Of a DNA stretch of 64,000 nt, positions 18,082 through 55,930 are shown piece after piece. This DNA is from Peribolospora baueri. Lineage: Eukaryota. Every line of letters starts with the position of its first letter. Position 1 is the stretch's first letter. The notes under the pieces are model-generated. The model was not told where the DNA came from and ran no database searches. It saw only the letters and a program-made list of their open reading frames with translations. The stretch lies in NCBI GenBank assembly GCA_029717555.1, contig JAMDHS010000027.1, positions 1 through 64,000 on the forward strand. Direction: 5' to 3'. Both the position numbers and the translations under genes were made by a program.

Positions 18082-18146
18082 AGTCTGCAAGCCGAGGGAG
18101 GGTCTCGTCCAAGATCATCCGGAACTGTGATGCCGGCGCTCTCGTT

Positions 18147-18148
<2 letters not shown>

Positions 18149-18192
<44 letters not shown>
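18149..18192. repeat. T44 homopolymer
   Basis: uninterrupted T run about 70 nt after the stop codon at 18081. Confidence 0.95.
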
Positions 18193-20146
18193 CGTTTTCA
18201 TTATCAAAGACACTCTTCCCCTCCCCGACACGGTGCGCTTTGCCGCGTTTCGTTCCCGAATACCGCCTATCTACTTTCAGCGCCGCTACGTGCGCCTCAC
18301 TCGAAATCAAACTTTTGCGTGTGAAGTATTTGAAACGGACCGGGCCGATGTATATTCGCGTGGATGTGTGTCTGCGTAATTAATTATGTAGTTATGTACC
18401 TGCCTTGCGATGACTTGACGGACGCCAGGTGCTGCACACCGTGGCTAACTAGCTGATCGGGACCGGGACGTCCGTGCATTGTCTATCGGTGATCGTCTTT
18501 GTCATCCCGCTCGACGACCTCTTCCGACCGGACTGATATGCTATTAGGGGAGGAACCGGACGCGGAGATGAAAACGGTCTTTCTTGTCACCGCACCGCCG
18601 GCACAGCTACAGCTATATCGACAGTTTTCTCTGGACCTCATACGTTGTACGCTCCATCTCCTCCGTCGTCGTCGTCCAGCATGCCAGATGTGAGCGCCAG
18701 CGTCCCGCCCTAAGAGACACGCTGGACTCTCGCCTGACGAACCTCTCTCCTCCGTCGCCGCTTCCGGGTGTAGAGAACGGTGATGGGAAAGGACGGAAAG
18801 CCGATCAAGGTTGGGGATAGGGTGTGGACTCCGCACCGCGGCGGAAAGCAGGAGGGCCCGGTGAGCTGGGCCGGAAGAGGTCGGTGGGGCGCCGGCCCCC
18901 CCGCGCTGAGCCTGACTGACGGTTGATGGGCTTGGCTCCCCCTGGTTCCGCGTCCCCGTCCCAGGTGGAGGCAGTGGTGGTGGATGAAAAGGACGTGGAG
19001 GCGGTGAGCGCCATGGGCATACCGATCAAGCGTCCTCCCAAGGTAAGGGAGAGAGGGAGCGTCGTGCTTCTTCTTTTTCTCACTCGTCGTTCCTTACATT
19101 CCTGTTTACGACGATCCTTTACTGCGCGCATGATCATCATCATATCGTCGTCATCAGGTCATTTACACCGATCAGGTGAGCCGCTTCGCTCGTCTCCACT
19201 TGGCCGGTCTCTGTAGGTTCGCCGCATATCGCATTGTCCCGCCTCGCGTGCGACGTGATGCGCTTGGCCATCATGCGCATGCCGCATTGTTTTTCTCTTT
19301 TCCTGTCCTCTTCCCCTTCCGGGTATCACGCTCGTCCGTCTCTTTCCGGCGACGCAGCACGGCCACAAGGTGGCTCATAACCCTTGGGCGCTCTCCCATG
19401 TGGAGTGACGCGATGGCGGGAGGTCGTTTCATTTCGTCTCGTTTGTGTCTCGGTTCATCGCGATCGACAGCGGGGGGTACATAAGAAAAGGGATGGATGG
19501 GTGGGGTGGCGAAGACAAGCACCGGCTGGGGTGGAATCGAATCGAGGAGGGAGGTTGTTGATGAAGGGCGAGGCAACGGAGGTGAGACTGTACAGACAGA
19601 CCTCGACACCGTCCCGGCACGCTCGTGCGAGCTAGCTCGCTCGTGTACATGGAGGAGGCGCACGTGAGGTCGGTGAAGGAGAAGAAGAAGGAAAAAGACA
19701 AAGAAGGGCGTTAGAGAAGAGCGGGAATTGGGGACGGCACGAATGAGTTGGACTACTGCGGGAGGAAAAAGAGGGAAACCGTAGCAAGAGTCGGTGGTCG
19801 GTCGTCGGTGAGGCCGGTGCGTGCTCGCCGCAAGGGACGGGCTGCGGAGGTTAGGGACAGAGGTGTGGGAGGGATGGAAAAGAAGAAAAGAGTCATAAGA
19901 AAAGGAAGTGAAAGGGAAAAGGAAAGAAAGACAAGCGAAAAGTGAAAGTGAAAGAAAAAAAAAAAAAGAAAAATTGACGCGTGTCTTTTCCACTTCGGCA
20001 ACCTCGTGCCGTGTCGACGACAACCGTTCGGCTCGCACTTCTTTCTCTTTCTCCCTCGTCGCCGTCTGCCTTCCCACCCTCGCTTGTCACGTTGTCCAAC
20101 GTCGCCAGGCAGGCCGTTGCTCTCGCCCGTCCTACGCACTGCAGTG

Positions 20147-32893: not shown

Positions 32894-35800
32894 TCAAATG
32901 AAGCGCATTCGTGCCGAAAGGAAGATCCAAGCGAGGAGCTTGTAGGCGACTGATATTGCGACGCTGTACAGGCGATGCGGACGAACAGATTAGCTCGGTT
33001 TAACTTGAACCGACTCCTCAACTAAACTTACCCAATGCCAAGGAATTTGGCAGTATTTCGGTCGTGGAAACCAAACAACTCCAGCACCTGCTCGCCCGTC
33101 GCAGCGACACAGGCCCCGTTCGCGATCGTCTCCGGCGGACAGTTGAAAGTGAGTCCCGTGAACTCATTGATGCTCTACGAGGACAAGAGAGCAAAATGAT
33201 GGAACTTTACTCAAGAACCCTTAGAAAGATGAGCAAAGTTGACTTACCTGAACGCGAACTGCTGCTTTAACAGGTAAGGCCCAGGCGATGTCCGCCAGCC
33301 ATGTGGGCAGAGACAAAGAGACTGTGATGCCGTAGAGACATGCGAGTTTCGCGAATCAGACTATCCATCCATCACTCCCACGGTCGGGAACGCAACTACT
33401 CACTGATGCCGGACATCTGTGTTCCGACAGTGAGCGCGGTGGAAATGAGAGATACGCTCGGGCCCATCGTCAACACCACAGAAGCGAACATGATTCCTAT
33501 ACTTTCTCCCATCTCCACGAGGGTAAGGATGGTGACCGCAAACTCGAAAAAGATGCTATGAGGGGATTGACAAGTGAGCGATGGGACCAGGCTTCCAGCT
33601 TTGATCTGCGCTAAGCTCACCGGACAGAGACTTGTTGGCCAACGGCGACCTGAGAAGAGGAAAAGAACAACGTTAATGTTCGATCGAGTTGTCCGAAACA
33701 AGACAGCCACGACTCACAAGCATGATACATGTATAGAGCAAGGAGGCAAAAATTTCGAAGGGCAGTGCAAAAGCAGTAAAGCTGATCAAGAAAGTCGCTG
33801 GCGAGTAGGCTCCGGCGGCCGACTGCCAATCGTGGAAGAAAATATTGCGCTCCATCGGATAGATCGCAAGGAGGCTGAGGCTGCCGTGAGGAACAAAGAA
33901 ATGGTCGACCTTTGCGTGTTGAACATGTCAAGCCTATTGCCAACCCCGGTCGGTCTTCACTCACAAGCCAGCAAAGGGCAAGGCACTCGTGTTCTCCTGG
34001 ATAAGTCCGATGCGATCTTGTGCGCCTGTGAGAGCGAGGAGGACCGGCATTAGCAGTGTCGACAAAGCATGTGTGGCCTCATATAATCCTTACCCGCTGG
34101 TCCACGATTTAGGCGGAGATAGAAAATGAAGAAGCAGATGCCAACAAATGGGATTTGAATAATCCTCGTCCACCACAAGTCTTGCTGTCTCCAGATGTTA
34201 CGAACAGACCTGAGGATACAAACAGGGTGAGCACAATCGATGGAAGGGAGGGCGGGTAACTCTCCATCACTCACCTCTCGAAGATGACAGGAAGAGCGAC
34301 GCGCATCGGTGTGATGCGATCGATATTGTCAATGCCGAGTCTCTGTTCATCTGCCTGCCCTTTCTCGTCGCTAGCATCCTCTGATGCATTGGTCAATCGC
34401 TTTTGAATGAGCCTCCGTTTCGCTTCCGCACGCTTCCAAGATTCGACCAGGCGCTCGACCCTGGCGTTGGTGGCATCTTGACGTCCCGCAGTCCTCATAT
34501 CCACGGACACCAAGTCCATGACAAAGTCAGCCGGCTGCATGAACAAAAGGGGTCGCAACTCAGGTCTCCGAATCATATAAAGGTAAAAGTCGCGGCTGCG
34601 TGAGGTTTCCAATCGAACCTCACATTGAAGAGCGGTGGGGAAACATGCCCAGCAAACTCTAAATACGGCAGAAGCTCATCGCGCATGCCGTTGAATACCA
34701 CATTGCCCGACTGGAATTTCAAGAACCAAGTCAACTAGATCGTTCGACGACGCACGCCGCCACGACAGAACTCACCTTTGCGAGAATAAGGTAGTTGTCA
34801 CCGAGATGGAAGATGTCGGATCGTGGCTGGTGTAAGGAGACGATCACCGTGCGCCTGTGAAGTGATGGAAACGCTCGGGGGCTTAAGAAAGGATGATTAT
34901 CGGGCGTGGATTGAAAATAAAACACGTACCCGCTTCTAGCGATGTCATTCAGACACTTCATGATGTTGTGGGCCATGTGGGCGTCCAGACCAGAAGTGGG
35001 TTCTTGAAATCGAAGAGAGCGATGGCATCATCAGAATCAGGGAGTTTTCAAGCGAGGGTTGAGAAGAGGCTCACCGTCGACGATTAGAACGGCCGGATCA
35101 TGGACCATCTGGCAAGCGAGCGACAGACGCCTTTTTTCTCCCCCCGAGATACCCTGGTGACGACGGACGCACGCGGAGGTGAGCAAGCTGAGTTCCCCAC
35201 CGCGCAAGGGAAGGGAGAAAATCACCTTGAGAAGCTCGCCGCCGACGAGGTTGTCAGCGCAGTCCTTGAGACCGAGCATCCTCAAGACCTCCTCGGCACG
35301 AGCGTGCTTGCGCTTACGACTAACGTTGGAGGGAAGACTAAGCGTGGCAGCAAAGCGGAGAGTCTCGCGCACCGTCAGCGCCGGCAAGTGGTAGTCGTCC
35401 TCTTGTTCGACGAAAGCGCACAGCTGCCGGGTCTTGTGCGACGCGGGGACGCCGTTGAACGTGATGCTTCCGGTCATCCGAAATGAGCCAAACGCTCCCC
35501 CGCGCAGAGGTCGTGAGGAGCAGAGCCGGAGAAAGGAAGACTTGCCAGAGCCAGACGGCCCCATGATGACGGATACTTGGCCCGAAGGGAAACGGGCGTT
35601 AATATCCTTGAAGATCACGTTGCACGAACGGCCGGGAACGCCGGAAAGACGCGGGACCCACTCAAGTCGGGCGTTGATCGCCTGGATATCGGGAAGATTG
35701 GGTGAGTAGACGGGCGAGCGACGACGATCAGCACGGGGCGGGACTGAGGGCGCGACGCTTACCTCTACATCCACCTTGTTGCGCTTGATATCGATCTCAC

Positions 35801-38800
35801 TCTCTGTCGATTCTTTGCCTTTGGAAGTCGAAGCGCTTTGGGCCGCATGGCGGACTCCGCCTGGCTTCCAGAATGAAAGCAAAAGGATGGCGGCAAAGTG
35901 GGTGACGACGAAGAAGCCAAACAAGCCCATAACTGATCGCAGAAGGGCATGGAGCGCAGATTGGGAAGACTGTGAGCGCATGCTGACGAGACGTCGACAT
36001 GGTGACAAACTCACACGATGGGTACAGCGCTTCCGTGGGGTCCATCCTGAGTCCGCGCAAAACGTTGTCGCCGTTGCACTGAGACAGGGCAGGACCGGTG
36101 ACACCTTCACAGGAAAACGTGCGACCGTGGAACTGGGTGTGCGCAACGCTACGAAAGAGACGGATTGAGCCGTCAGCCAGAGGGCAGAGGATAGATCGGG
36201 ATCGGAGAAGGGAAATCGCGGCTCACATCCTGTACGAGTAGAAGTAAGGCGACAGCCAGCGAAACCACCTGTGGGAGATGCGAGGGAGCCAAGACGAAGT
36301 ATTAAGGGGAGCGCGCGGATACCGGTAGAGCGAAGCTTTCGGTCTGCTGGCGAGTGACCGTCGCCGACACTTACGAAATCCATACAGGGATGGACTCCAG
36401 AAGGTATCCCGCCGTGAGCAAGAAGAACTACAAGGCGAAGGAGAAAAAACAAAACAAAACAAAAGTTGAACAAGCCGAGCGTGAGGAAATATGGCAACCG
36501 CGAACAGCAGGAAGAAGAGGAAGAGAGACTGGACCGTCTGTACTGACGATGGCGATGGCGTTGCAAAGCAAGCTGGCCCTGGCAAAACTCCTCTCGATGC
36601 TCGCTATCATGAGCGCAAAGCCGACCACGTCGAGTTGGAAGAGGATGCACTCTCCGATCATGAGAAAGAGCTTTGCCGCCACGTCTTCGGTCCAGAGCCC
36701 GCAGATGAAGTAGATGAGCACGGCATAGAGGCTGGGAGCGAGGACGTTGGCGGGAAGGTTGGCAATAAACTCGGAGAGGACCCAGGCGGGGGCGCTGTAG
36801 AGGTGGTCCTCGCGTTCACGGTCGAAGATCACGAGGGTGGTGCACCATTTATAGATCCAGACTACTTGGGAGAGGTAGAAGAAGCAGGGAGCGTGCTGTT
36901 GTGAGGCGTGGAGGGACGAAAGAGCAGGGGGGAAGAGTGTGTTCAACGCGCACGTCCAACAGAGAAGCTCAACTCCAGGACTTGAGCCGCGGACCTCCAA
37001 GCTACTCACTTGATACGCGATGGTCTGGCCGTGGGTGACATCGCCAAGCAAGCAAGAAAGAAAGAAAGAAAGAAAAGGTCAACAATAGACGACACTCACA
37101 AATCGTCGGCAACACGGTGGAGCAGCGACACTCACTTTCAAACTCTGAATGTCCGCCGGCGTTTCTCCAAGCCTGAAAAAAGTGATACCGACTAGGACGC
37201 CGAGGCTGTGCGTACACGTAGAGGGGGACGCGACGGCGCACGACGGTGTCTCGGTCAGCTGAGGGACGCGGATGAGATGGACGGACTAGGGCGGTGCCAA
37301 GCCGACTCACACGATGGCTTGAAAGGCATGACCGACGAGCTCGAGCGCGTTCCTGTACACGTTCTTCCAAGCCCGCGGCAGGAGGATGGCCGTCTGTACA
37401 ACGACGTTTGGCCTTTTCTCGGGCGCGCCGACAGTCTTTTGTGGACGCTTGAAGGAGGGGAGAAGAGTTTGGGAGCGGGTGCGCTTGGCAGAGACGCCGA
37501 CGCCGACGGGGAAAGGGGAATCGGAGAGGGTGGCAAGTGCGGTGGGAGGAAGGGCGCTCACATCTAGCCGGGAGGCCGAGTGCGCCGTCACATTAGCCGC
37601 CTGGGGCGGCGGACTGTCCCGATCGTCCCTGGCGAGGGGTCCGGGTCCTGGCACCGCCTCTGCGCGTCGCATGGACTCGTGCTCCGCCCATCTGCTCACC
37701 AGATTGCTCACACGCCGCCTGTCCTCCTGCTCGCACTCCTCGTCGCGCGTGTCGACGGAACTGACGTCGATGAGAAAGTCGAGCGGGTTCGTGCGCTCCG
37801 GTGGGAAATGGCCGAGTGAGGCAAAGTAAGGAAGGCAGTCGCGAACGGGGCCGGAGTAGACGACGTCGCCTCGGGAGAGAAGGAGGAGACGGGAGAAGAG
37901 GTGAAAGGCGTCTGTGCGATTGGAAGGAGGGGAGGCGAATTAGCCAAGCGAGACGGGAGCGGGACGAGGTGCATGTTTGACAGTCACATGCGCACCTGAA
38001 CGAGGCTGATGAAGGGACAAGATGATCGTCCTTCCGCGCTTGGCGAGGTCGCTCAGCGTCTCCAGGAGTTGATATGCGGTGAAGGAATCGAGACCTGTGC
38101 CAGAGAGGAGAGAGGAGAGAGGAGCGAGTAGCACGGGCCGCACGCACCCAGTCGGCGATGATAGTGTCAGCTCCTCGGGACCCGAGCATGCGCCGGGGGC
38201 GTGTCAGGTCGTGGGAGCATCACGCTCACCGGTTGTGGGCTCATCGAGGACGACAAGGCTGGGCAACGTGACGAGACAGCAGCCGATGCTGACCCTCCTC
38301 CTCTCCCCGCCGCTGATGCCTTTGCGTCCCATCCCGCCGGCGACGCCCCCGTCGCCTCCCACCATTCTGTCCCTTGCCGCGGCGAGGCCAAGTTCACTGA
38401 TGGTCTGCTCCACGATCTTCTCCCTCACGTCCGGTGGCACGCTGGCGGGGAGACGCAAAGCCGCGGCCGCGGAGAGGGTCTCGTAGACGGTAAGGTGAGG
38501 GAGGAGGTAGTCGGACTGGCGAACGAAAGAGAGAAGGGAGGAAAGGCCTCGAGGCTTTTGATGGGCATGCGTGGAAGGGGAGGTGATGATGAGCTCGCCA
38601 GCGTTGGGCGCCAGCGGAGAGGAGGGATCGGCGGGTGGGCTCGCGGCGGAGGCGGGCACGATGCCAATGCTCCCTCCTGTCACGGGCAAGTCGTTCAACC
38701 GAGCAGCGACGGCGTGCAGCAACGTCGTCTTTCCTGACCCCGAGCCGCCGATGCTGGACGGATAGGAATAGGAAGGCGTGAGCGGAGACACAGGTCGAGC

Positions 38801-39684
38801 GGCGTGCATGTGAGATGTGGGAGCCGTCTTTCCTCGCCATCTACGTCTACCCACATCGCAAGCATCTCTCCCGCCATCACATCGGCGTTAACGTGACGAA
38901 TGATAGTATTGCCTTGGGCACGAGGAGTCGACCGCTGGGGCGGAGAGAGCTGGTCTGGGCCGCTCGCATGAACGGCCTTCTCGCTCTCCTCAACCATCCC
39001 AGCGGGGCGTGCCTGACGCGTCTCGCCGTGCTTCCTCCAACGGCCGGTGGCAATGTTCCATACCGGGTCGGGGATGGGGATGGGGATGGGCGTGGGGATG
39101 TAGTGTTTCTGAGGAGGCACGCCGATGGACAGGTCGCGGACGTGGAGAGAGTAGGACGGCGGTGGGGGCAGGGTGAGAATGGCGGCGGTGGGGGCACGGA
39201 CGTCGGGGTCGGGGTGGAGAGAGTGGATCGCGGCGAGAGGCGAGTAAGACGGCTTGCGGCTGTGATCTCTCTTCTCGTCGTCTCCGTCTTTGTCTTCGTC
39301 GTCGCCATCGTCGTCGCTGTCGTCGTCATCCTCCTCCTCCTCGTCGCCATCGCCGTGGTGCTGATCGTTGGACGAGTGAACGGCGACGGACGTTTGGTCG
39401 CCTGTGCCTGGGCCTGTGCCAGTGCGCGGAGGTGCTGTGCCTGATCCTGCCATCGATCCCGACGATCTGGCCATGTCTGGACGATCGTCGGTGTCCCCTC
39501 CACCGCCGTCGTTCATCGAACCCTTGTCCGCGGGCTCCGTTCGATCCCCAGCGGAGGAATGGGCGCTGACGAAGCTGTGCGAGGAGGCGGGGGAGGAGAT
39601 GGAAGGCCTGAAGGCGCCTAGGACCGCCTCGCCGTGCTCTTCTGAAGGGCGGGTGCGAGGGTGGCGGACGTCGAGGTCCGACAT
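32894..39684 (-). CDS. full-size ABCG transporter, (NBD-TMD)2, YOL075C-like
   Basis: Walker [10 protein letters not shown] and GPSGSGKSS; signatures [10 protein letters not shown] and [29 protein letters not shown] twice; two TMD exon blocks; stop at 32894. Confidence 0.92.
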
Positions 39685-39908
39685 GGAGAGACGAGTCTGG
39701 AGCTGGAGCTGGAGCTGACCGACGGAGGAGGAGGGGAAGGAGGTGGACGCCGACGACGAAGATGGAGGGGACTGGCTGGGCGCTGTGGTAGTTGCCGGGT
39801 CGTCCCTTGCTGGTTGCTGGTGAGGGGGAAAGCTTTCTTCTCCCTCTCTCGACGTACACGCAGTGTATATAAATTGTCTGCACCTCCTTTCGCCTCGTCC
39901 TCGGTGCC

Positions 39909-40054
39909 ATAGGAGCAGGTGACGAGGAAGCGTCGATCGAGGATGGCCCGTCGGCCCGCTCCACTGTTCGTTCGTACGGGGTCCACTACGAACGAACAGT
40001 GGAGCGGGCCGACGGGCCATCCTCGATCGACGCTTCCTCGTCACCTGCTCCTAT
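39909..40054. repeat. perfect inverted repeat: 68-bp arms, 10-nt loop
   Basis: 39909-39976 is the exact reverse complement of 39987-40054; loop cggggtccac. Confidence 0.97.
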
Positions 40055-40425
40055 CTATCCACATCTGCTTCTCCTTCTCTGCCTGTCCACGTGGATTGAT
40101 TGGGAGCCAAACAGGCGTTGGCGCCGGCGTCGGCTTGGGCGGCGGCGGCCGAGTCTAACCAGCCGCACCCATACTTCATCCGACACCGCCGCCTTTCTCT
40201 CGAGCCCCTTACCGTTTCCAGACAGCGCTTGGCCGCACGACCAAAACGTTACGGATGATGAACCGGGAGGCAGATAAAAAAGAAAACCACGACACAAAAT
40301 AAGATAAAATCTCGGCTTAGATTCGCACACCGATCTTTATACAGCAATTTCCCAAAGCTACAGCTAGCTACGCGGTAGAGAATGAACGAAAACGGACGTA
40401 ACGAGCTCCGTGGGCGATTGATTGC

Positions 40426-41578
40426 TCAGTGACTGCTGGTCTTCAGGACGTTGTTGACGACCGTCCTGCCGAGAGCGTCGTTGCCGTTGCTGTCGTTGTT
40501 GTTCGTCGTCGTCGTCGTCACCGTCGTTTCCACATTCTCGTTCCCATCGTGCGAAGAGTGGTGGTGCTCCTGCTCCCAGTTGGTCTCCTGGCGCGGGAGG
40601 ATGGGGTGGAAGCGCTGCTCCTCCATGGACGACTCGTAGCGGGGAAGAATGGGGTGGAAGCGCTGCTCCTCCATGGACGACTCGTAGCGGGGAAGAATAG
40701 GGTGGAAGCGCTGCGATTCACTGTTGATGCCGGGCGGGGTCGACGGGTCATGCTCAATCGGCTCATTGCGTTTGGATGGGGGGTTAGTGCCGAGGTTGGA
40801 CGACGGCAGCGGCTCTTGGCGCCCCTTGAAGTTGTTGTAGGTGGTGAAGTCGACCGGCCGCTCAGGACCAATGCCATGACCAGCGCCCGTAAGCGCACTG
40901 AAGTCGCGTCGCATATGGGAATCATAGTCGAATTGGGCCGGGTTAAAACCCTGGTTCTCCATCATGGGCGTACCGATATGAAGCCTGTTACCGTCGTTGG
41001 GCACAACTTGTCGCGCTTCGACATATCGGCCCGGGTTAAGATCCTGGTTCTTCATCATGGGCGTACCGATATGAAGCCTGTTACCGTCGTTGGGCACAAC
41101 TTGTCGCGCTTCGACATATTGGTCCGGGTTATGACCCTGGTTCTCCATCATGGGCGTACCGATATGAAGCCTGTTACCGTCGTTGGGCACAACTTGTCGC
41201 GCTCCGACATATTGGCCCGGGTTAAGATTCTGGTTCTCCATCATGGGTGTACCGATATGAAGCCTGTTACCGTCGTTGGGCACAACTTGTCGCGCTTCGA
41301 CATCACGATTCTCGGTGTTCATCCTATGCGCCTCCATGGGCGTATCCACGACCAACCCGACATGAGGTCTGGGGTCGCCAAAGGACTGGCCCGACGGGTC
41401 TGAGTCAATTGGACAAAAAGCGGTGCAAGTTTCAGTGAGACGGGTCGACAGGGATAGACTAGACGACGCTACGAACGACCCGTTGAGACTCACTGGCATC
41501 GGTAGAGGGGATGGGAGCGGCCGACGCGGCAGAAGCGAGGACGAGGGAGAGACAGGCGAAGAATGCGACGGACTTCAT
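40426..41578 (-). CDS. secreted tandem-repeat peptide precursor (KEP-like)
   Basis: Exon 41578-41494 (signal peptide MKSVAFFACLSLVLASAASA), intron 41493-41400, exon 41399-40426. Contains 4x 31-aa repeats (V[E/G]AR|QVVPNDGNRLHIGTPMM..) and 3x QRFHPILPR. Confidence 0.88.
40592..40713 (-). repeat. coding tandem repeat, 48 nt x about 2.5
   Basis: YESSMEEQRFHPILPR units. Confidence 0.9.
40930..41301 (-). repeat. coding tandem repeat, 93 nt x 4
   Basis: cgcgct(t/c)cgac recurs at 41012, 41105, 41198 and 41291. Confidence 0.95.
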
Positions 41579-42440
41579 GATAGCGACGGGTGTGTTGTTG
41601 AGATGGAAAGGCGTGTGTGCGAATCGTATACCGAGAAGAAAAAGCGTAGATCGTCCACGTGGTCGCACCGGGCGCTGTGGAGAAGACGAAGGCAAGGAGG
41701 TTTAGAGAAGATAAAAGAAACTAGGCGCCAGGCCTGGAAGAAGAAAGAAACGTGGTGGTGGTGGTGATAGTCGGGAGAGAGGTGAGGACGAACCGAGGAC
41801 AGGTCATATATACCAACACCGACGGATGGAACACGGTCGGTCGGGCGGAAACGTCCGCCGGGGCGGGCGACACCGTGTTGGTTGCTCATCGACGGCGCAC
41901 ACTGTCGGTGGGCGCCCGTTCCACATTCGACCGCAGAGGCGCCACCGCGTATGGGTGAGCGCAAGAATAGACCTCAGCGGCGGAAAGATCCGAGCAGCCA
42001 AACGTCGGTGAAGATCATGGTGGAGATGTGAGGCGCAAGTAAGCGCATGGCGTCTGACGGAATCCACTTGAGTCTGTTGCAGGCTCGCCGAACTCTCCGT
42101 TGCGTTCCAGCGCGCTAGACGGTTAGATCAGACGCCGACGACGGTCCGTAGGCGCGGAAAGGAATGGGCAGGGTGCGCTGATGGTCAGCCGAAGAAACGC
42201 ACCGCCACAAGGAGAGTGAGCTGACCGGACCTTCTTTCGCTCTGCTCTGTCCGGAGTTGCACAGTTGAATTGCGTCAGCTCAATCGACATGAAGGGTTTA
42301 TACAGCCTGCTTAAAGAAAAGGGCCGGCTGGAACGAGTCGAGTCCGATTCGGCGTCGCGCCGGCGGTGCAAGTGCGGAAGCAACTCGACCCCGCCCAATC
42401 ATCCGTTCATCGCCGGCGTCGGCCGCACTGCGGGCGGGGC

Positions 42441-42491
42441 GAAGGGGGAAAGGGGAAGGGGAAGGGGAAGGGGAAGGGGAAGGGGAAGGGG
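42441..42491. repeat. (GGGGAA)n purine tract, G-quadruplex-capable
   Basis: about 8 G4 runs separated by AA. Confidence 0.85.
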
Positions 42492-43014
42492 ATGCACACT
42501 GGGCGAGCGCCGACCTAGTCCTCTGCCTCGTTCAGCATTTCCTCAGCCTTATCCAGCCTTACGCTTGTAAGATTGGTAACACGGTCGAGTCCGGCTCGCA
42601 CCTCGCCCGACTCGTTCGGAAACCTTACTGACGGACGACGCGCCGTTGACCTCCGTCGAGATATGACCGCGCGCCCATTCGACGGAGGCCAGGGACAGCG
42701 TTGGGGGATCTGAGCGCACGCTCGCACACGGTGGCCATGGGCGCAGGACGGAAAAAGGTCCACGTCTGTACGGCACGGCGGAAAACGACCGGCTGAATAT
42801 TCATGTCGACGGTCTACAGCAAATTGTGTACAACGGAGCAGAAAGCGAAAGGGAAAGGAATACCAGAGAAGGACAGGGAACGGTACGAGCGACACGATAG
42901 ATTATAGGTACATCTCTCCTGCACTGTAGTAGAATAATCCAGCCGCTCGATCGGGCCAGATGAAGGACGGTATGAGAAGGAACGCCACGCGACGTTATCG
43001 AGGTCTGCCGCCGC

Positions 43015-48570: not shown

Positions 48571-51500
48571 TCACCACTCCAACGATTCCGACCCGGAACT
48601 CGGCTCGGCATCCCATTCCTTCAAAGCAGCCGCTTCCCTGCACGGCATCAATGCCATCACGGTCGTTTCCTGTGCTCTCGCTCTCTCCATCTCCCTATCC
48701 GCCTTCACACGTTCGTACAGAATTGGGCAATCGAGCGACTCGCAAGGCACATCCGGAGCCTGGGCAGGGCCGCCGGCCGGAGAGGCACACGAAGCGCACA
48801 CACGCTGCACAACGCTCCTACGGCGTGTGGAGAGGTTCACGCGAGATTGGACAGCGTGTGTCGTTTGTGTCGGATGGGCGAGGCAATCGATGCAGACGGC
48901 TGAGGGGAAAAAAATAGGTAAGGGTTGCGAGGAGAAAACCACGAAGTCAGAGGCTACACAGCTCGCGAAAGAATATTAAAGGCGCTTACCCTTGTCAGCT
49001 GGTCGTCCACATACGGTGCAGTGATTGCTCTTGAAGTGTTGGTCAAGAGTGAGTTTCACGGCCTTTCCTTTCGTACTTGCTTTACGGTTGCCATTTCCTT
49101 CTGCATTCTGCAGCATCCCGTCAACGTGGCTCTCAACATGTTTGGGTCGTGGCATGACCTCATACCACGATAGAACATCAACGCCCATGAGGTTGAAGAC
49201 GCGCGCCAATGGTGGAATGAGGACACGCTCGATGTAGTATTTCGCGTTGATGCGCATAGTCCTGGCACCGGCATGCAGGGATAGGTGAGGAGAAGGTGGG
49301 GATGATATCTATAGAGAGGAAAGAACACACTCACGGGTCGTTCAAGAATGCCTCTGGAGGCACGGCTTGGTCGTTGAGCAGAGCACCGGGTTCGCCTTGC
49401 GAGATGATGTACGGCACTCGCTCGGCATATTGCGGCTCAGCACGCGGGTCCCTCGCCATCTTGAGGGCACTAATGAGTGCACCGGGAGGCGGTGGAATTT
49501 TGTCGCTGAAGAAACGAAGACCGTTCCACATGGTCAATCACAAGAAGGTTCAACCCTGATCGCTTGCAGAGTGCTCACCTGTACGTGCCCAGTCGCACCT
49601 CCTTCGCGAAGATGAAGTCCTGAGGCGATACCTGTCCCTTCAAGATTTTGGTCCACTGCCTCTGGCAATAGTCTTTGACTTGAGATAGATCCGACGTACG
49701 AAAGAGGATTCTATGCGACAAGGGTAAAGACAGTCAGCGCCCTCCTACGAAGCTACGAGATCTGATATCACATGAAACTCACTTGCAACACGTCTCGACC
49801 ATCTTCGATTGCGCAGGCACGCCATCTCGACGGACAGTCTCAATGCCCTTCGCATCGAAAACTGGCTCCTTCTCGCTCGAACTCTCAAATTTGAAGCCCA
49901 CGTAGCGTTTCTTAGCTACCAGTACGCTTGGCAGGTAGACTTTTTCAAATTTGAGTTTGACTGGCTGAGGATTATTGGCGGTGATAGTGTCGGCGATCTC
50001 GTTTCCAATGACGAAGGCGTCATCCTTGGTGCGACCAGGAAGGTAGATGAACAGACTGTCGGTGTCACCGTAGACGACCTCGGCCTGCCATCGGCGAGTG
50101 GCGTGAATGACCTCGATCGCCCTCTCCAGTGTCTCCCGACCGTACTGAACAATGGAGTCAGCGATTTCGACGGCTGGCATGCGCCCCGATAATGTGGCGC
50201 TGGTATAGCCGTAGATGACGTTGGCGAGCAGCTTCAGAGACAACTGTCGAGCGTTCAAAAGCCTTTTCAGGGTCTGCCCAACGACATCGCCTGTTAGCCA
50301 ACACCTGTAACGGAGGCACGCACTAGCTCGAGAAACGACGCCCACTACAGGAGCGACGCTGAGACTCACCTTGTCGCTCTTTACATCTTTCATCGCGTTT
50401 TTGACCATGACCCGCGTATCCAAGATCTCTCGGAGCATCTTACTCAAAAGACTCTTGCGCAAGTGGGGCTTGACGTACATGATTCCGTTCGGAGAGACTG
50501 TGCAAAATGCAAGGATCACGAAGACTCATTGAACCTGATCATGATGGTCCTGGCGCGTGGCCGATTCATGCGGGCTTAACTCACTATTCAAGTGATCCTT
50601 TAAAAGAGTGAGGAGCCCGTCGGGCAAATGCAGCTCCGAGACGCCAAATTTCCAAGTTCCTTTAAACATGTCGACACGACCGAGACATGTGGAGTAGCTG
50701 CAAAGCGAGAACGTAAGCGTGTGAGCGAGATGGCGAGGCACTGCCCAAGAAAAAGTAAACACTTCGGCTTACCAAATGTTATAGGCAATCATGATGGATG
50801 GATAGAGGCTCTGAAAATCTAGCACCAAGAGTGGCCCCTTATAGTAAGCAGATTGTGGTTCCATCACGAGCGCCAGACACTCGGCGGCGTTCTGGCTGCC
50901 AACCTGTTTCCGGTTGGGACTGATCAAGACGAAGCTTTCAGGTTTTGAGATCCGGAGCATGACAGACTCGACCTTGAACTGTGAGCCGCGACTTATGACT
51001 GAGAAGAAATCGACACCATAGACGCGAGCAAACTCGGCCGTCCTGAGGACCACCTCGGACTCGTCGAGCATCTCGGCGTCCATTTCAGCACGGTCGAGGT
51101 AGTAAGTAATAACGCGGGCGACCTGTCCGGGTATCTTGCTTGTGTACCATGATGTGAGGGTGCGCGCGGAAAAGCGTGGGACTCTAAAAGAGATCGAGGA
51201 ATGGGATCACATCAGCAAGAGCCGAGCGCTCCGTGGAAGCAGGCTTACTGACCGTTGATGCAAAAGATGGAATACCAAGTTCTCGAAGGTGTACTGGGTA
51301 AGGTTGATGTCGTTCTTCATCAATCGCCAGATGTTGAGCATGTGTCGACCCGTCACCTTGATAGCAGACGTCTGGGTATAGCCCCAGTTATCCGCCTTGC
51401 CGCGCGCTCCGCCCGTAGACTGGACGATTACCCGCCCGAGCTCGGCGGTGAGGTCAAACTCTATCATTTTATGAGATTGGCAAATTGTCAGGACATCCTC

Positions 51501-54500
51501 AATGGAAACAGCTGTCAGTCGAAAAAAAAACGACCCTTTAATACTGACCGAAGTGTCTCATCGCTCTTTCGATAACATATCCCCAAGAAGAGCTTTGGAC
51601 ATCGAATCCAGCTAGGATCTCCGGATCCCACTCGCGCACCTTGTCCACGAGCAAATTGAGCAAATCAAGCTCCGAGTCCGCTACGTCGATGGGGTAGCGC
51701 GAAAGGCCGAGCCGAATGTGATCGCCTAAGCCCTCAGAGGAGAGGAGGACACCGGTGAAATACCCTTCTCTGCGTCCAGTATCTGGCAGCCAATCTTCTT
51801 CGTTCTGGAAGCAGTAGGTGATGAAGCTGATGGGATCGTGCTCCGGATCGGGCAGGAGATCATCGCGCGAGTTGGCTACCGAGCCAATCAATGAACAGAG
51901 TATGAATGGACTAGCAATAAGACTCGCCAAGTATCGCCGTATGTACGCTTGACGGACTTACCGTACACTTCGATGCAAAGGACAGACATGTGCTGCTTCT
52001 CCCGCACCATCGACTTTGAGGACTCGTATGGGCTGTACTTGAACCCGTACTTGTTCGCCTGCGTAGGCCCCTCAATCTGAGAGGCCAGCTTTCTCTTCCG
52101 CTCATCCTCTCCGTCCTTTAACGCCGAGACTGGAGCCAAAAGTGAGCAGACGAGGGGTAGAGCCAACATTCAGTACTTCGAACGCTCCCGACAACGTCGG
52201 CCAACTCATAACTCACATTTGCTGCTATCCTGCACCTGAACTTTCTCATTCCTCTGTTCCCTCAGCCAACGACTGATTTGCCTCCTGCTAGGCGCCTGGC
52301 CGGCGTATTCCCAGACGCTAAACTTGTTCCCATAAACCGGTGCTTCATTCCGTCTGTTAAACGGATTCCCTTTGTTCGCATCCCCTCTCCCAGGACCTGT
52401 CCCGCCGCGCGTCACCACGTCCATACCCACGCCCGCACCTCCTCTTTCCCACACTCGCTCTTCTCCGACGGCATGTCTAAACTCCCTCAGTGACCCAAGC
52501 TTGTCGCTCGCAAACGTGAACACCCTCCCCGCGTATTCTCTCGGTCGCCCCGGCACGTCTTTGGGGTTCGAGTAGAAAGGGTTGGGGTAAACTTTGGGCG
52601 GCAGGCCAAAGGTAGGAAAGGTTCGGACAACGTCGGCCACAGTGGGAGGCGCACGTGCATAAACGTAGGCGTCCGTAGCGAGGAGAGAGGTCGACAGGGG
52701 CGGCCCTGATATAGAAGTATGGGTGGTTCCATTGGCGTGTGACATATTGTCGGAGCTTCGCCCAGAAGACAGAGATTGTGTGAGAGATTGCGAAGAGCCA
52801 GATAATTCGGTCGTATCCGCCGCAGGATGAACCTCATTCGGCTCTTGGATGCGAGTCCTCTTCATCAGCTTCCCTGTCTCTGCTTTTCCTGCTTCCGCAT
52901 CGTCGGCGCCATCGTCCTTCGCGTCCTTCGTGCGCTTTCGCATCGCGCTGTGTACGTCCTTCTCGTCGTCCAGCTTTAGCTCTCGCTGCACGGCATGGTC
53001 GGTCGGCTTCGGGGACAGTGACGGAGATCGGGGAGGAAAAGGCACGATCTCCGTAGGGGACGGCGTGCGAATTTGGCCCGCTTCGTCCTCATCGCCATCC
53101 TGTCCTAGAGAGACCTGGCGGAGACCCGATCTTCCACCGCTCACGGGATCCGGGAGACGAGACCGATGCATGGCTTTTGCAGCAGGGCGTGGGGGTCGTG
53201 CGGCTACGTCCACCTCTTCCTCTTTCGTAATTGTCGGCACAGGCTCTTGGGGATGCGACAACGACGACGACGACGACGAAGAGGAAGAGGAGGAGGAGAG
53301 AGCATCAGGTTGAACTGAGGAAGGGATCTTGGGCGCGCCCGGCTGAGACCGCGGAGTTTGAGGAATGGTGGTAAGGGTCATAGCCGATCTCAATCTGCTT
53401 GGCTTGCTGGGCGTTCTTAGCAGGACCTCGCGCTCGCGCTCCCACCTCTCCCAGAAATGTTTCTCATCATGGCCGCCCTGGCCGCTCGGGGGTCCCGTCC
53501 TACGGCGCTTGAAAAGACGCTGAGAGTGCGGAGATGACTCATCTGTTTCGGGAAAGGTGGGTGTGAGAGGAAGACGACGACTTGGCTGGCCGGGGGAAGG
53601 AAGGTAGTCTTCAAACTGAAGAGGAGTCGAGGGTCGCGAAAGCACATCGGAGCCATCGAAAGGAGGAGACGGAGACTTGCGCGAAGGAGAAGAGGCAGCC
53701 GAGGCCAAGGCGTCTTGGAGAACGTGTGTCTGGCTTGCGTGCGCAGGCGTACGACGAACGTCCTTCAGCTCTCCTCGTTCGACCGCTTCCTCACCGATAT
53801 CCGCTGCCTCGGCCTCCTCTTCGGTACCTGTGCCTTCGCTGCCGCCGTCATACGTCTCTTCCATCCCGGCAGCCCTCACACTTGTTCCCACATCTCTCTC
53901 CGCCGCCATCTCCGCAGGCCTAGCGGCGGTGGGCTGCGTCCCGATGCCGGCCTGTCCAAACCGCCGGGCAGCGCCAAAGTCCTGGCTGGAAATGACGTCC
54001 AGGTCGACCTCCTGGGCGACGATGCTTCTTTGCGTCGCCTTGAACGCCTCTTGAGCGCTCGACGGAGAGCTGGCCGAGCCACCTGGTCTCGATCCATCGT
54101 CGCGGTCGTCATCATGTCCGACCTCGTCTTTTGCGTTGGCCCCGCCCGAGCCCTTGTATTTATCCGCAAAAAGGGGAACCCAGGGCCGCTCTCCGTGGGC
54201 GAAATACGCCTGGGAGGATATGTTGTTGATGTCAAATGGATCAGCGCACAAAGAGAGAGAGGAAGAGGACTTGCGTCCATGCGGTTCTCCCTCAGGGGTC
54301 ATTTCGCCCGTCTCGCCCGCCTCGCCCATCATCGTCCTTCCAAGGCCGCCGGTGCCCCCTCGCTCGTCCGCCATCGCCTCGCCAAAGTTGTCCACCTTCT
54401 CCGCGAAAGCGCCCTGCTTCCTTGGATCAAGGGCGTCCACGCTCTCGAACGTCGTCCTTATGAACGGCTCAAAAACGTCGCCGCCCCTGACCCGATCCGG

Positions 54501-55930
54501 CTTGACGAAATCGTCAAACCGCGGCAGCGCCGAGCCCTTGTTGTTGTTGTTGAAAAACCGCCTTTCCTCCTTCAAGCGCTCTTCCAAGATGGCTCGAAAC
54601 CTCTCCTCGGCCGCCCATACCGGGCTCTCTCCCTTGGCGTACTTCCTTTTATCTCCCATCGTATCCGCGAAGGGAATGGACGGGGGTAGACCGGCCAAAG
54701 TCCTCCTCCTCTTTTCTTCCTCCCACAATCCCCTGACGCTATGCACGAGCTTTTCGTCATCCGGGATGGGGTGGCGAAGCTCGACAAAATCATGATGAAG
54801 ATTTCGAGGGCGGAGGCGACGGCGGTTGAGGATCTGGAAAACGGTGCAATCGGCCTCGAGGGAACAGTACGAGATGCGGGCAACGGAAGTGGAGGTGGAG
54901 GTCGGTTGTAGGACCTTGGAAGGAGGCACGGTGGTAACGTCGTATCTGGTGTTTGCCTCATCTTCCGGCGAGGAGGAGGGCTCACACTCTACGGGGGCCG
55001 TGGCCGGCGAGACAAAAAGAAGACAAGGCAGACGAGGATGGATGGTGAGGGACGTGTTGGAGGGCCCGGACGGCACATGAGTGCCACTCACCTGGCAGCG
55101 GAGCTCTGAACCACACGTCCTCCAAATCGATATAAGTACACCCGTAGAGGTTCCAATCGAGAAGGAAGAGCAAGTGAAATGGTATGTGACTTTCCAAGGG
55201 CTGGAACACGGTGCGCATCACGGCGCCGCTCTCGAGGAGGGTGACGAGGCGGTGCATATGCATGGGATCTACAAGGCAGATCTTGAGGTAGAACTTCCAG
55301 CCGACGTGGAAGCCGTAAAATGGCACGCCTTTACAGAGGAAGATGGCGGCGATGAACTGGCATTTTGTGGGGTCGTTCGGATTGCGCCGGAGGGAGACGG
55401 CCATGGCGTGGTTGAGGGCGAGGCCAAGTTTGTAAATGTAGCGGTGGACTAAAGGAGGGAGGATGAGGAAAGGAGAGACAGGACAGGACAGGCGGACGAA
55501 GGAGCTGAATGCTAAGCCAGACTCGGTGGGCGGCGCTCGCACCCGGTCAGAGACGAGACACACTTAACTCACCGACGTCAGGCTCCAAACTACCGGTATA
55601 TTCCACATAGCAGTAAGGAAAAGCCTGGTGAACGTGGAGACAAACCCTCTGACCGACGGGGGTGGAGCCAAAGATACGTATCTCCGGCACTTTGACGAGG
55701 TCCACGCCTGGAGGGTTGAAGGCGCAGAAGGAGCGGTCGAGGGGGCCAGGGGACGACTGGACGTGGTCGATGTTGCTTATGGAAATGCGGAGATAGGGAC
55801 GGGGGCCTTCGGGTGACGAGCAGGTCGAGGAGAAGGAGTTCGTGGTGGCCCGTCTCCCGTCCCCTCCATCGCCGTCGCCACCGCCCGGGGACCGTGGCGG
55901 GTGATCGCCTGCTCTTGGTGGTTGGACCAT
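48571..55930 (-). CDS. REV3: DNA polymerase zeta catalytic subunit
   Basis: CLHVHQAFPY, ESHIPF..LYGC, SRGSQFKVES, LDFQSLYPSIMIAYN, KLLANV.YGYT, YGDTDSLF, KGIETVRRD, C-terminal Cys motifs (CESLDCP). Confidence 0.96.

What the first reader, a model, noticed from the sequence alone, without database searches (positions are those of the whole stretch)
40426..41578. Secreted multi-peptide precursor (KEP/RiPP-like) with two repeat families, co-oriented with an ABCG exporter
Seen: splicing one intron joins a signal peptide to four 31-aa repeats bounded by V[E/G]AR|Q, unique segments ending RR, GR and KR, and three units ending QRFHPILPR. Each 31-aa unit, and two other segments, would begin with Gln after cleavage. 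The core QVVPNDGNRLHIGTPMM is invariant while the tail varies. Established: fungal Kex2-processed repeat proteins release peptide sets (pheromones, repellents, candidalysin, dikaritin RiPP precursors), and N-terminal Gln cyclises to pyroglutamate. Inference: an uncharacterised peptide-cocktail system using mostly monobasic AR/PR sites. No DUF3328/UstYa oxidase is visible in the window, so linear peptides are more likely than a dikaritin. A functional link to the ABCG gene 740 bp downstream is speculative.
Basis: partly seen in the sequence, partly recalled or inferred. Interest (0 to 1): 0.75.

Follow-up and report, generated by a model that had tools for sequence, protein, structure and literature searches.

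The report
Secreted tandem-repeat peptide-precursor-like fungal gene
A basidiomycete fungus carries a lineage-specific gene for a secreted repeat protein that looks like a precursor cut into many small peptides, a known fungal theme, but its repeats are bounded by single arginines rather than the usual arginine/lysine pairs, and nothing here shows that it is cut.

Summary
On the minus strand an 85-nt exon (signal-peptide-like), a 94-nt GTGAGT...CAG intron and a 974-nt exon give a 352-aa hydrophilic protein. It has four 31-aa units (93-bp period), a degenerate fifth unit, and 2.4 copies of a 16-aa unit ending QRFHPILPR. Codon usage supports this strand and frame. Within the 31-aa units the 17-aa core has 1 variable base in 51 (synonymous); the tail has 9 in 30, all in amino-acid-changing codons (Fisher p=4e-4).

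No relative was found by Pfam, word-indexed search, phmmer against 1.84 billion representatives, the ESM Atlas or PDB. The host is a basidiomycete whose own proteins are apparently absent from those libraries, so "orphan" is a weak claim.

My best reading (0.4) is a KEP-like multi-peptide precursor. It fails the published KEP definition: 0 of 7 repeat junctions are dibasic. Published Coprinopsis work does show pyro-Gln KEP peptides and cleavage after single Arg.

The main rival (0.35) is an intact secreted repeat protein. Dikaritin RiPP, CLE mimicry and coupling to the neighbouring YOL075C-like ABCG gene are unsupported. No expression or cleavage evidence exists. Interest is moderate to low: a new variant of a known kind.

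The parts
41494..41578 (-). Exon 1: start codon, signal-peptide-like N-terminus (MKSVAFFACLSLVLASAASA|AP...) plus the first base of codon 29
   Evidence: Kyte-Doolittle 15-aa maximum is 2.35 at residues 4-18, against at most 0.21 anywhere after residue 25. Small residues at -3/-1 (ASA|AP after residue 20). Codon score +0.30 bits/codon in frame. This is rule-based, not SignalP.
41400..41493 (-). Predicted 94-nt intron (GTGAGT...TTGACTCAG)
   Evidence: It is needed to join the signal-peptide frame (stop at 41459-61) to the long ORF. It has the same donor/acceptor look and size range as candidate introns in 6 of 10 homology gaps of the neighbouring ABC gene. GC is 0.52 against 0.58 for the CDS. 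No RNA evidence.
40426..41399 (-). Exon 2 with TGA stop (40426-40428): pro-region, both repeat arrays, unique segments, Thr/Asn-rich C-terminus
   Evidence: Codon-usage score is 0.237 bits/codon. Confident genes in the window score 0.09-0.31, the antisense frame 0.051, and the other four frames negative. GC3 is 0.72.
41290..41373 (-). Degenerate leading unit PRPHVGLVVDTPMEAHRMNTENRDVEAR, ending in the first VEAR|Q junction
   Evidence: Local alignment RPHVG..TP-ME to RLHIGTPMME. The repeat finder D1 gives a 66% copy.
40918..41289 (-). Four 31-aa units (residues 66-189): invariant 17-aa core QVVPNDGNRLHIGTPMM plus a variable tail. Units 1-3 end [EG]AR; unit 4 diverges and runs on to RR192-193.
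   Evidence: Core has 1/51 variable nt (synonymous). Tail codons 18-27 have 9/30 variable nt, all in amino-acid-changing codons. Fisher p=4e-4.
40906..40911 (-). RR192-193, one of only two dibasic (canonical Kex2) sites
40768..40773 (-). KR238-239, the second dibasic site
40591..40734 (-). Second repeat family (residues 251-298): PGINSESQRFHPILPR, then YESSMEEQRFHPILPR x2, with junctions LPR|Y, LPR|Y, LPR|Q
40429..40590 (-). C-terminal 54 residues (QETNWEQEHHH...TTVTTTTTNNNDSNGND...KTSSH): hydrophilic, His/Thr/Asn-rich, no hydrophobic GPI-type tail, no CAAX
32900..39686 (-). Context only: co-oriented downstream full-size ABCG (NBD-TMD-NBD-TMD, YOL075C-like) gene with many introns. The 5' limit is uncertain.
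   Evidence: Pfam ABC_tran x2 and ABC2_membrane. Basidiomycete homologues at 45-56% identity. tblastn HSPs run from 39171 to 32909.
39909..40054 (.). Context only: perfect 68-nt inverted repeat (10-nt loop) in the gap between the two genes

Best explanation
This is a real, one-intron gene of a basidiomycete. It encodes a 352-aa secreted, hydrophilic, nearly Cys-free tandem-repeat pro-protein with no detectable relatives.

Most likely mechanism (inferred, not shown):
1. The signal peptide is removed near ASA|AP.
2. In the late secretory pathway a kexin paralogue, or a monobasic-specific protease such as a yapsin, cuts after Arg. The sites would be the repeat junctions V-[EG]-A-R|Q and I-L-P-R|[YQ], plus RR, KR and GR in the unique segments.
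3. A Kex1-type carboxypeptidase trims the C-terminal Arg.
4. Each new N-terminal Gln cyclises to pyroglutamate.

Predicted products:
- three 30/31-mers and one 33-35-mer sharing the invariant N-terminal 17 residues;
- two identical 15/16-mers, YESSMEEQRFHPILP(R);
- several unique linear peptides.

This is a KEP-like 'many peptides from one transcript' device that uses monobasic rather than dibasic boundaries. The peptides would be linear, not dikaritin-type. Their biological role is unknown. Extracellular signalling or interaction with other organisms is the usual guess for such peptides.
For: Gene reality:
- Codon usage of the proposed frame is 0.237 bits/codon, within the 0.09-0.31 range of eight confident genes.
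- All six sub-segments score positive in frame.
- The antisense frame scores 0.051.
- Both repeat periods (93 and 48 bp) are multiples of 3.

Secretion:
- The only hydrophobic stretch is the N-terminal one, with small residues at -3/-1.
- It is joined by a consensus intron like those of the neighbouring gene.

Constraint:
- The core has 1/51 variable bases (synonymous) against 9/30 in the tail, all in amino-acid-changing codons (Fisher p=4e-4; p=0.02 on the three full units only).
- Selection therefore acts on the peptide sequence of the core.

Architecture:
- Repeats make up 172 of 352 residues.
- All 7 repeat junctions have Arg at P1.
- Gln follows Arg at 6 junctions.

Precedent:
- Agaricomycete KEP peptides are pyro-Gln-capped, and products cut after single Arg were detected (PMC9769878, passages).
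- Kex2 processing with non-basic P2 residues is documented, and a monobasic-specific yapsin is cited (PMC2515848, passages).
- 79 of 1193 KEPs carry two or three motif types (PMC6339444 section 24).
- 2560 of 7878 KEPs are 'stand-alone' without homologues (PMC7329392 abstract).

Recalled, not tested: Kex2 tolerates poor P2 when P4 is aliphatic. Here P4 is Val or Ile at the junctions but Asp or Glu at the internal Arg. Kex2 also cuts Pro-Arg in K1 killer toxin.
Against: - There is no transcript, protein or peptide evidence of any kind.
- 0 of 7 repeat junctions are dibasic, so the protein fails both published KEP screens.
- Each 31-aa unit has an internal Arg (GNR|LH) and each 16-aa unit an internal QR|F. 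A purely monobasic protease would have to spare these.
- No homologues exist to show that the junction Arg or Gln is conserved.
- The signal peptide was judged by rules, not SignalP, and depends on an unverified splice.
- The single-sequence AF2 model puts the AR|Q junction inside a beta-strand of a solenoid-like repeat (pLDDT about 62). That would fit an uncut structural protein. The antisense control also gave strands at pLDDT about 50, and Foldseek found nothing significant (best E 1.1).
Confidence: 0.4

Rival explanations
1. It is a secreted repeat protein that acts uncut. It would be an extracellular-matrix, cell-wall or surface protein, or a repeat-containing effector. The 31-aa units would form a beta-rich (solenoid- or amyloid-like) array, and the Arg residues would have no processing role.
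For: - AF2 (single sequence) gives three short strands per 31-aa unit at pLDDT 57-65, while the rest of the protein is below 50.
- The top Foldseek PDB rows are beta-solenoids and functional amyloids: FapC, CsgA, ice-binding proteins, bactofilin.
- Variable positions fall in predicted turns.
- The protein is Asn/Gln/Gly/Pro-rich (36 Asn, 34 Pro of 352).
- No dibasic sites flank the repeats.
- A conserved core with variable loops fits a fold as well as it fits a peptide.
Against: - Foldseek matches are not significant (best E 1.1, probability at most 0.05).
- The antisense translation of the same DNA, a non-biological control, also yields strand-rich repeats at pLDDT 45-58. AF2 tends to draw solenoids for any tandem repeat (recalled).
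- Overall pLDDT is 47.5 and pTM 0.35.
- The second repeat family and the unique segments are predicted disordered.
- The regular Arg|Gln junctions have no role in this reading.
Confidence: 0.35
2. It is not a functional gene. A minisatellite in intergenic DNA happens to keep a frame open, or it is a decaying pseudogene.
For: - No homologue exists anywhere.
- The antisense frame is also open for 333 codons, showing that repeats inflate ORF length.
- There is no expression evidence.
- All tail differences between units are non-synonymous.
Against: - The codon-usage score is as high as that of confident genes in all six sub-segments, unique ones included, and clearly above antisense and off-frames.
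- GC3 is 0.72.
- A signal-peptide-like exon followed at once by a consensus GTGAGT donor, with an acceptor that restores the frame, is unlikely by chance.
- Core invariance against tail variability (p=4e-4) implies selection.
- Both periods are multiples of three.
Confidence: 0.1
3. It is a dikaritin-type (ustiloxin-like) RiPP precursor whose cores are cyclised by tailoring enzymes.
For: Only the general signal-peptide-plus-repeats layout.
Against: - No DUF3328/UstYa, tyrosinase, methyltransferase or P450 was found. This covers 65 ORF translations window-wide and 57 more in 31.5-52.2 kb.
- No KR/RR flanks the cores.
- The invariant core has no Tyr, Trp or Phe for ether cross-links.
- DUF3328-linked KEPs are rare in Basidiomycota: 103 of 1680 (PMC7329392 passages).
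Confidence: 0.02
4. The peptides are exported by, or functionally coupled to, the co-oriented ABCG transporter downstream.
For: Adjacency and the same strand.
Against: - The protein has an ER signal peptide, so it does not need an ABC exporter.
- ABC-exported basidiomycete pheromones are cytoplasmic and prenylated (PMC9769878 passage). This protein ends ...KTSSH with no CAAX.
- The ABC is a conserved YOL075C-like gene with homologues across Basidiomycota and Ascomycota, whereas the repeat gene is unique.
- The other neighbour is a housekeeping-type acyltransferase.
Confidence: 0.03
5. The core mimics a plant CLE peptide. QVVPNDGNRLHI would align in register with RLVPSGPNPLHN, as in multi-domain nematode CLEs or the CLEs of mycorrhizal fungi.
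For: 5 of 12 identities (V, P, N, L, H) in register with the Rhizophagus CLE domain printed in PMC8618561. The layout is tandem and multi-domain, with Arg just upstream.
Against: - 1285 of 5000 composition-preserving shuffles reach 5/12, so this is chance level.
- The central G-P-[ND]-P shared by most CLE domains listed in that table is absent (PNDGNR here).
- The final residue is Ile, not Asn or His.
Confidence: 0.02

Closest known systems
KEX2-processed repeat proteins (KEPs) of Agaricomycetes, e.g. Coprinopsis cinerea KEP 497993 and 490115 (PMC9769878)
   Same: - Signal peptide followed by tandem peptide units.
- Linear products.
- Units begin with Gln, which becomes pyroglutamate.
- Some products arise from cuts after single Arg.
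- Often lineage-specific, with unknown function.
   Different: - Those repeats are flanked by KR/RR (some followed by STE13 XA/XP dipeptides). Here 0 of 7 junctions are dibasic and there is no XA/XP signature.
- The units here are long (31 aa), with an invariant N-terminal half and a variable C-terminal half.
- There is no sequence similarity.
Ustilago maydis Rep1 repellent precursor
   Same: - A basidiomycete secreted precursor of many tandem peptides of about 35 aa (37-aa peptides per PMC6339444 passage).
- Its products form amyloid-like fibrils (PMC9769878 passage), which echoes the weak beta-rich prediction here.
   Different: - Rep1 is a proven Kex2 substrate (PMC2515848 passage). That its repeats are separated by KR sites is recalled.
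- No sequence similarity was detected; Rep1 was not compared directly.
- No evidence of fibrils here.
Saccharomyces alpha-factor precursor (MFalpha1)
   Same: One secreted pro-protein yields several copies of a peptide through Golgi endoprotease plus carboxypeptidase trimming.
   Different: - Alpha-factor uses KR sites and Ste13 spacers, with 13-aa peptides.
- It is an ascomycete mating function. Basidiomycete pheromones are a-type lipopeptides.
Dikaritin RiPP precursors (ustiloxin UstA, phomopsin, asperipin)
   Same: Signal peptide plus repeated cores.
   Different: - They need KR flanks, DUF3328/UstYa oxidases in a gene cluster, and aromatic residues in short cores.
- None of these is present here.

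Membership tests
KEP (Le Marquer 2019, PMC6339444; Umemura 2020, PMC7329392) | N-terminal ER signal peptide | tested here: met
   Hydrophobic core at residues 4-18 (KD 2.35) and ASA|AP at -3/-1. This is rule-based only: SignalP, as used in those papers, was not available, and the result depends on the predicted splice.
KEP (Le Marquer 2019; Umemura 2020) | At least 3 tandem repeats (at least 8 aa and at most 100 aa each) clustered and covering at least 15% of the protein | tested here: met
   4 x 31 aa plus 3 x 16 aa gives 172 of 352 residues.
KEP (Le Marquer 2019; Umemura 2020) | Repeats separated by dibasic Kex2 sites (KR, RR, KK; also RK in Umemura). In-silico KR/RR cleavage must give at least 4 fragments. 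| tested here: not met
   0 of 7 repeat junctions are dibasic (EAR, GAR, EAR, EAR, LPR x3). There are only two dibasic sites (RR192, KR238), giving 3 fragments.
KEP | Actual cleavage by kexin and release of the peptides | not testable with these tools
   Needs peptidomics or kex mutants.
Dikaritin RiPP precursor | DUF3328/UstYa (and often tyrosinase) gene near the precursor gene | tested here: not met
   None in 65 + 57 ORF translations scanned against Pfam. In 30-52 kb, 26 of 104 ORFs were not scanned; they are antisense to or inside known genes. Small exons could be missed. The window covers about 40 kb on one side and 22 kb on the other.
Dikaritin RiPP precursor | Short core with aromatic residue(s) between KR sites | tested here: not met
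   The invariant core has no Y, W or F, and there are no KR flanks.
Plant-type CLE peptide domain | 12-aa domain R-x-[VS]-P-x-G-P-[ND]-P-x-H-[NH], as in most sequences listed in PMC8618561 | tested here: not met
   5/12 identities, reached by 1285 of 5000 shuffles. G6, P7, P9 and the terminal N/H are absent.
Beta-solenoid / functional-amyloid repeat protein (CsgA, FapC type) | Confident stacked strand-turn-strand repeat fold, or significant structural match | tested here: inconclusive
   Repeat pLDDT is 57-65 against 45-58 in the antisense control. Foldseek best E is 1.1.
a-factor-type lipopeptide pheromone exported by an ABC transporter | No signal peptide; C-terminal CAAX box | tested here: not met
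   It has a signal-peptide-like N-terminus and ends ...KTSSH.

The most novel reading that the evidence does not exclude
This gene would be the first recognised example of a class of basidiomycete multi-peptide precursors. Their repeats would be released at monobasic aliphatic-x-(Ala/Pro)-Arg sites rather than KR/RR/KK, so they would be invisible to every published KEP-mining pipeline. The products would be a graded set of pyroglutamate-capped ~30-mers: an invariant 17-residue 'address' with a diversifying C-terminal half, plus a second peptide family from the same transcript. These would act as extracellular signals or interaction peptides.
Probability: 0.25. Interest if true: 0.55.

Novelty: new variant of a known kind. 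Interest (0 to 1): 0.35.

Why it matters
Fungal KEP-type precursors are numerous: 7878 were predicted in 1461 genomes. Their functions are almost all unknown, and all genome mining for them requires dibasic sites. If this protein really is cut at single Arg junctions, those screens systematically miss part of the fungal secreted peptidome. The invariant-core/variable-tail design would then give a tractable case for asking what such peptides bind. If it is not cut, it is one more lineage-specific secreted repeat protein of unknown function.

Tried and rejected
1. Homology. All of the following found nothing usable:
- Pfam: no family.
- Word-indexed search at near length: 7998 candidates, none at E<=0.01.
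- phmmer against 1.84 billion representatives: 2 hits.
- ESM Atlas, whole protein and repeat region: no usable hit.
- PDB sequences: none.
The two phmmer hits are P0003 (912 aa, many ...IHPILPE... repeats) and P0004 (775 aa, with PSFETPVEQQPMEP-type repeats). They match only the HPILPR repeat stretch, in 11 and 9 stretches. I judged them repeat-amplified matches to a short motif, not homologues. I did not test this further.

The taxon therefore rests on the ABC gene alone.

3. CLE-mimic lead: at chance level.

4. Beta-solenoid lead: not significant and not clearly above the antisense control.

5. Peptide strings (VVPNDG, FHPILP, RLHIGTP, GTPMM and similar) were searched for:
- in the held supplements of PMC7329392 (3 files) and PMC6339444 (4 files): 0 occurrences. 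The held text may be cut.
- in the full-text library: 0 papers.

6. tRNA and Rfam scans of the window: nothing.

7. tblastn of the spliced protein against the window found only the gene itself; the other rows had E of 4 or more.

8. Not done:
- Complex prediction, because no binding claim is made.
- Genome contigs, which holds only bacteria and archaea and so is not informative for a fungal gene.
- Metagenome contigs and viral contigs, which were closed.
- No eukaryotic genome collection was available, so synteny and unannotated orthologues stayed unchecked.
Full report
WHAT IS THERE

The feature lies on the minus strand.
- An 85-nt first exon (41578..41494) encodes MKSVAFFACLSLVLASAASAAPIPSTDA plus one base.
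- Its own frame stops at 41459-61.
- Directly after codon 28 comes GTGAGT. 94 nt later...TTGACTCAG restores the frame of a long ORF that runs to a TGA at 40426-28.
- By my reading, the other in-frame AG would give a 25-nt intron, which is too short.
- In the neighbouring ABC gene, 6 of 10 homology gaps contain candidate introns with GTGAGT/GTAAGT donors, YAG acceptors and lengths of 41-112 nt. The predicted intron looks native. There is no RNA evidence.

The spliced product is 352 aa with 1 Cys. It is rich in Asn (36), Pro (34), Gly, Ser, Arg and Glu.

IS IT MORE THAN CHANCE, AND IS IT CODING?

- TRF finds a 93-bp period x4.0 (40932-41303, 93% matches) and a 48-bp period x2.4 (40601-40714, 98%).
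- These are the only two direct-repeat families of at least 40 nt in the 64-kb window.
- An open frame over repeats is weak evidence by itself: the antisense frame is also open for 333 codons.
- I therefore scored codon usage against eight confident ORFs of the window.
  - The proposed frame scores 0.237 bits/codon. The training genes score 0.09-0.31, the antisense frame 0.051, and the other four frames -0.33 to -0.48.
  - Each of six sub-segments is positive in frame (0.15-0.32). These are exon 1, the pre-repeat, one 31-aa unit, the unique middle, one 16-aa unit and the C-terminus.
  - GC3 is 0.72 against 0.58 overall.
- The only hydrophobic stretch is residues 4-18 (Kyte-Doolittle 2.35; at most 0.21 anywhere after residue 25). 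It is followed by ASA|AP. This is a rule-based signal-peptide call, not SignalP.

ANATOMY

- After the signal peptide comes a pro-region. Its end (PRPHVGLVVDTPMEAHRMNTENRDVEAR) is a degenerate copy of the repeat.
- Four 31-aa units start at Q66, Q97, Q128 and Q159. The first 17 residues (QVVPNDGNRLHIGTPMM) are identical in all four.
- Units 1-3 end YV[GE]AR. Unit 4 diverges after residue 26 and runs on to RR192-193.
- Then come unique segments ending KGR222 and KR238-239.
- Then come three copies of QRFHPILPR. Two of them sit in identical 16-mers, YESSMEEQRFHPILPR.
- Last is a 54-residue His/Thr/Asn-rich tail ending KTSSH, with no GPI-like or CAAX end.
- Six Arg|Gln junctions exist.
- At the DNA level, the core has 1 variable site in 51 (synonymous ACA/ACG). 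Tail codons 18-27 have 9 in 30, all in amino-acid-changing codons. Fisher p=4e-4 on four units, and p=0.02 on the three complete units.
- Whole 93-bp units were duplicated together. This asymmetry therefore indicates selection on the core peptide sequence, and perhaps diversification of the tail.

RELATIVES

- Pfam: none.
- Word-indexed search at near length: none among 7998 candidates.
- phmmer against 1.84 billion cluster representatives: two hits. Both are long repeat proteins that match only the HPILPR stretch in 9-11 pieces. I regard them as repeat-amplified motif matches.
- ESM Atlas: no usable hit for the whole protein or the repeat region.
- PDB sequences: none.
- Peptide strings were absent from the held supplements of the two KEP surveys and from the paper library.
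- Caveat: the host's own proteome is apparently not in these libraries. The best match to the neighbouring ABC ORF is only 53-56% identical. 'Orphan' therefore means 'no relative among annotated proteins', not 'absent from related genomes'. No eukaryotic genome collection was available to check this.

ORGANISM AND NEIGHBOURHOOD

- The ten best hits to the ABC ORF are all basidiomycetes: Phanerochaete, Cytidiella, Hermanssonia, Punctularia, Ceratobasidium, Mycena, Exidia, Tulasnella and Auriculariales.
- The first ascomycete hit appears at about rank 48, with less coverage.
- The ABC gene is intron-rich. The window is therefore from a basidiomycete, probably an agaricomycete.
- Downstream and co-oriented lies a full-size ABCG gene (NBD-TMD-NBD-TMD, 'YOL075C'-like by the names of its homologues). 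It spans about 39.2-32.9 kb or more.
- Upstream and co-oriented lies a PlsC-type acyltransferase.
- The rest of the window is housekeeping: tRNA ligase, Npa1, a helicase, a GATA factor, an EF-hand protein, an F-box protein, a family-B DNA polymerase and MFS transporters.
- No DUF3328, tyrosinase, methyltransferase, P450, peptidase or glutaminyl cyclase was seen.
  - One search scanned 65 of the 110 ORFs of at least 150 aa.
  - Within 30-52 kb, 78 of 104 ORFs of at least 90 aa were scanned. The 26 left out lie antisense to or inside the ABC, F-box and PPR-like genes.

HOW IT MOST LIKELY WORKS

The architecture is that of fungal 'many peptides from one transcript' precursors. Three points of published precedent in Agaricomycetes are close (PMC9769878, passages read):
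- KEP-derived peptides in Coprinopsis carry N-terminal pyroglutamate (pyro-QIPAELPTKSINGNIEPYKV, pyro-QVPVDEPA, pyro-QYKAPSW).
- The fungus has a putative glutaminyl cyclase.
- Several products arose from cuts after single arginines.

PMC2515848 (passages) notes evidence for Kex2 cleavage with other residues at P2 and cites a monobasic-specific yapsin. Two-motif KEPs are known: 79 of 1193 carry two or three motif types. A third of predicted KEPs have no homologues: 2560 of 7878.

From memory only: Kex2 accepts poor P2 residues when P4 is aliphatic, and it cuts Pro-Arg in K1 killer toxin. Here the junction Arg has Val or Ile at P4 (V-x-A-R, I-L-P-R), while the internal Arg has Asp or Glu at P4. 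That would explain why only the junctions are cut.

On this reading the products are:
- three 30/31-mers and one 33-35-mer with the same 17-residue N-terminus;
- two identical 15/16-mers;
- several unique peptides.

Six of these fragments (the four repeat-unit peptides and the segments starting at Q223 and Q299) would be pGlu-capped.

WHY I HOLD THIS AT ONLY 0.4

- The defining KEP feature is repeats between KR/RR/KK(/RK) sites. It is not met: 0 of 7 junctions are dibasic.
- Cleavage is wholly inferred.
- No orthologues test conservation of the junctions.

The main rival is an uncut secreted repeat protein.
- A single-sequence AF2 model gives three short strands per unit at pLDDT 57-65, with the AR|Q junction inside a strand.
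- Its top Foldseek rows are FapC, CsgA, ice-binding proteins and bactofilin.
- None of those rows is significant (best E 1.1).
- My control, the antisense translation of the same DNA, also gave strand-rich repeats at pLDDT 45-58. The structural lead is therefore weak.
- The two readings are not exclusive. Ustilago Rep1 is both Kex2-cut and amyloid-forming.

REJECTED IDEAS

- Dikaritin RiPP: no tailoring genes, no KR flanks, and no aromatic residue in the core.
- ABC coupling: a signal-peptide protein does not need an ABC exporter, the ABC is a conserved gene, and there is no CAAX.
- CLE mimicry: 5/12 identities, reached by 1285 of 5000 shuffles, and the central GP[ND]P shared by most CLE domains in the table of PMC8618561 is missing.

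VERDICT

This is a plausible KEP-like precursor, but of a non-canonical, monobasic kind that fails the family's operational definition.
- There is no evidence of expression, cleavage or conservation.
- It is a new variant of a known kind, of moderate-to-low interest until a transcript and peptides are shown.

Noticed in passing
window 39909-40054: A perfect 68-nt inverted repeat (100% complementary, 10-nt loop), unique in the window. It lies between the stop of the repeat-protein gene (40426) and a TATA-like TATATAAA (about 39866-39873) upstream of the ABCG gene. It could be a hairpin terminator or insulator between two co-oriented genes, a foldback/MITE relic, or an assembly artefact. It also creates two mirror-image spurious ORFs beginning MARRPAPLFVR... 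on both strands.
   Followed up: partly
window 40402-41403 (+): The antisense strand of the repeat gene is open for 333 codons. Its codon score is low (0.051 bits/codon) and it has no Pfam match. This shows how tandem repeats inflate ORFs on both strands.
   Followed up: yes
window ~38700-39700 (-): The ABCG gene seems to have a long N-terminal extension that is poorly conserved and rich in Ser/Pro and acidic runs (...[23 protein letters not shown]...). Homology to other basidiomycete ABCG proteins begins only around 39171, so its true start codon is uncertain.
   Followed up: partly
window 18145-18192: A 48-nt almost pure T tract (TTTCT followed by more than 40 T), paired loosely with an A-rich stretch at 19924-19971.
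   Followed up: no
window 48574-55563 (-): A family-B DNA polymerase gene (POL3_N, exonuclease, DNA_pol_B and C4 zinc-finger domains). Its 1003-aa central exon has no Pfam match and found no hit at E<=1e-30 in the word-indexed search. This would fit the poorly conserved middle of a Rev3/pol-zeta-type subunit (recalled, not tested).
   Followed up: no
window 42400-42520 (+/-): A short GA/GC-rich microsatellite-like stretch. It translates as GRGRGRGRGRG / GEGEGEGEGEG in two frames, in the gap between the repeat gene and the acyltransferase gene.
   Followed up: no
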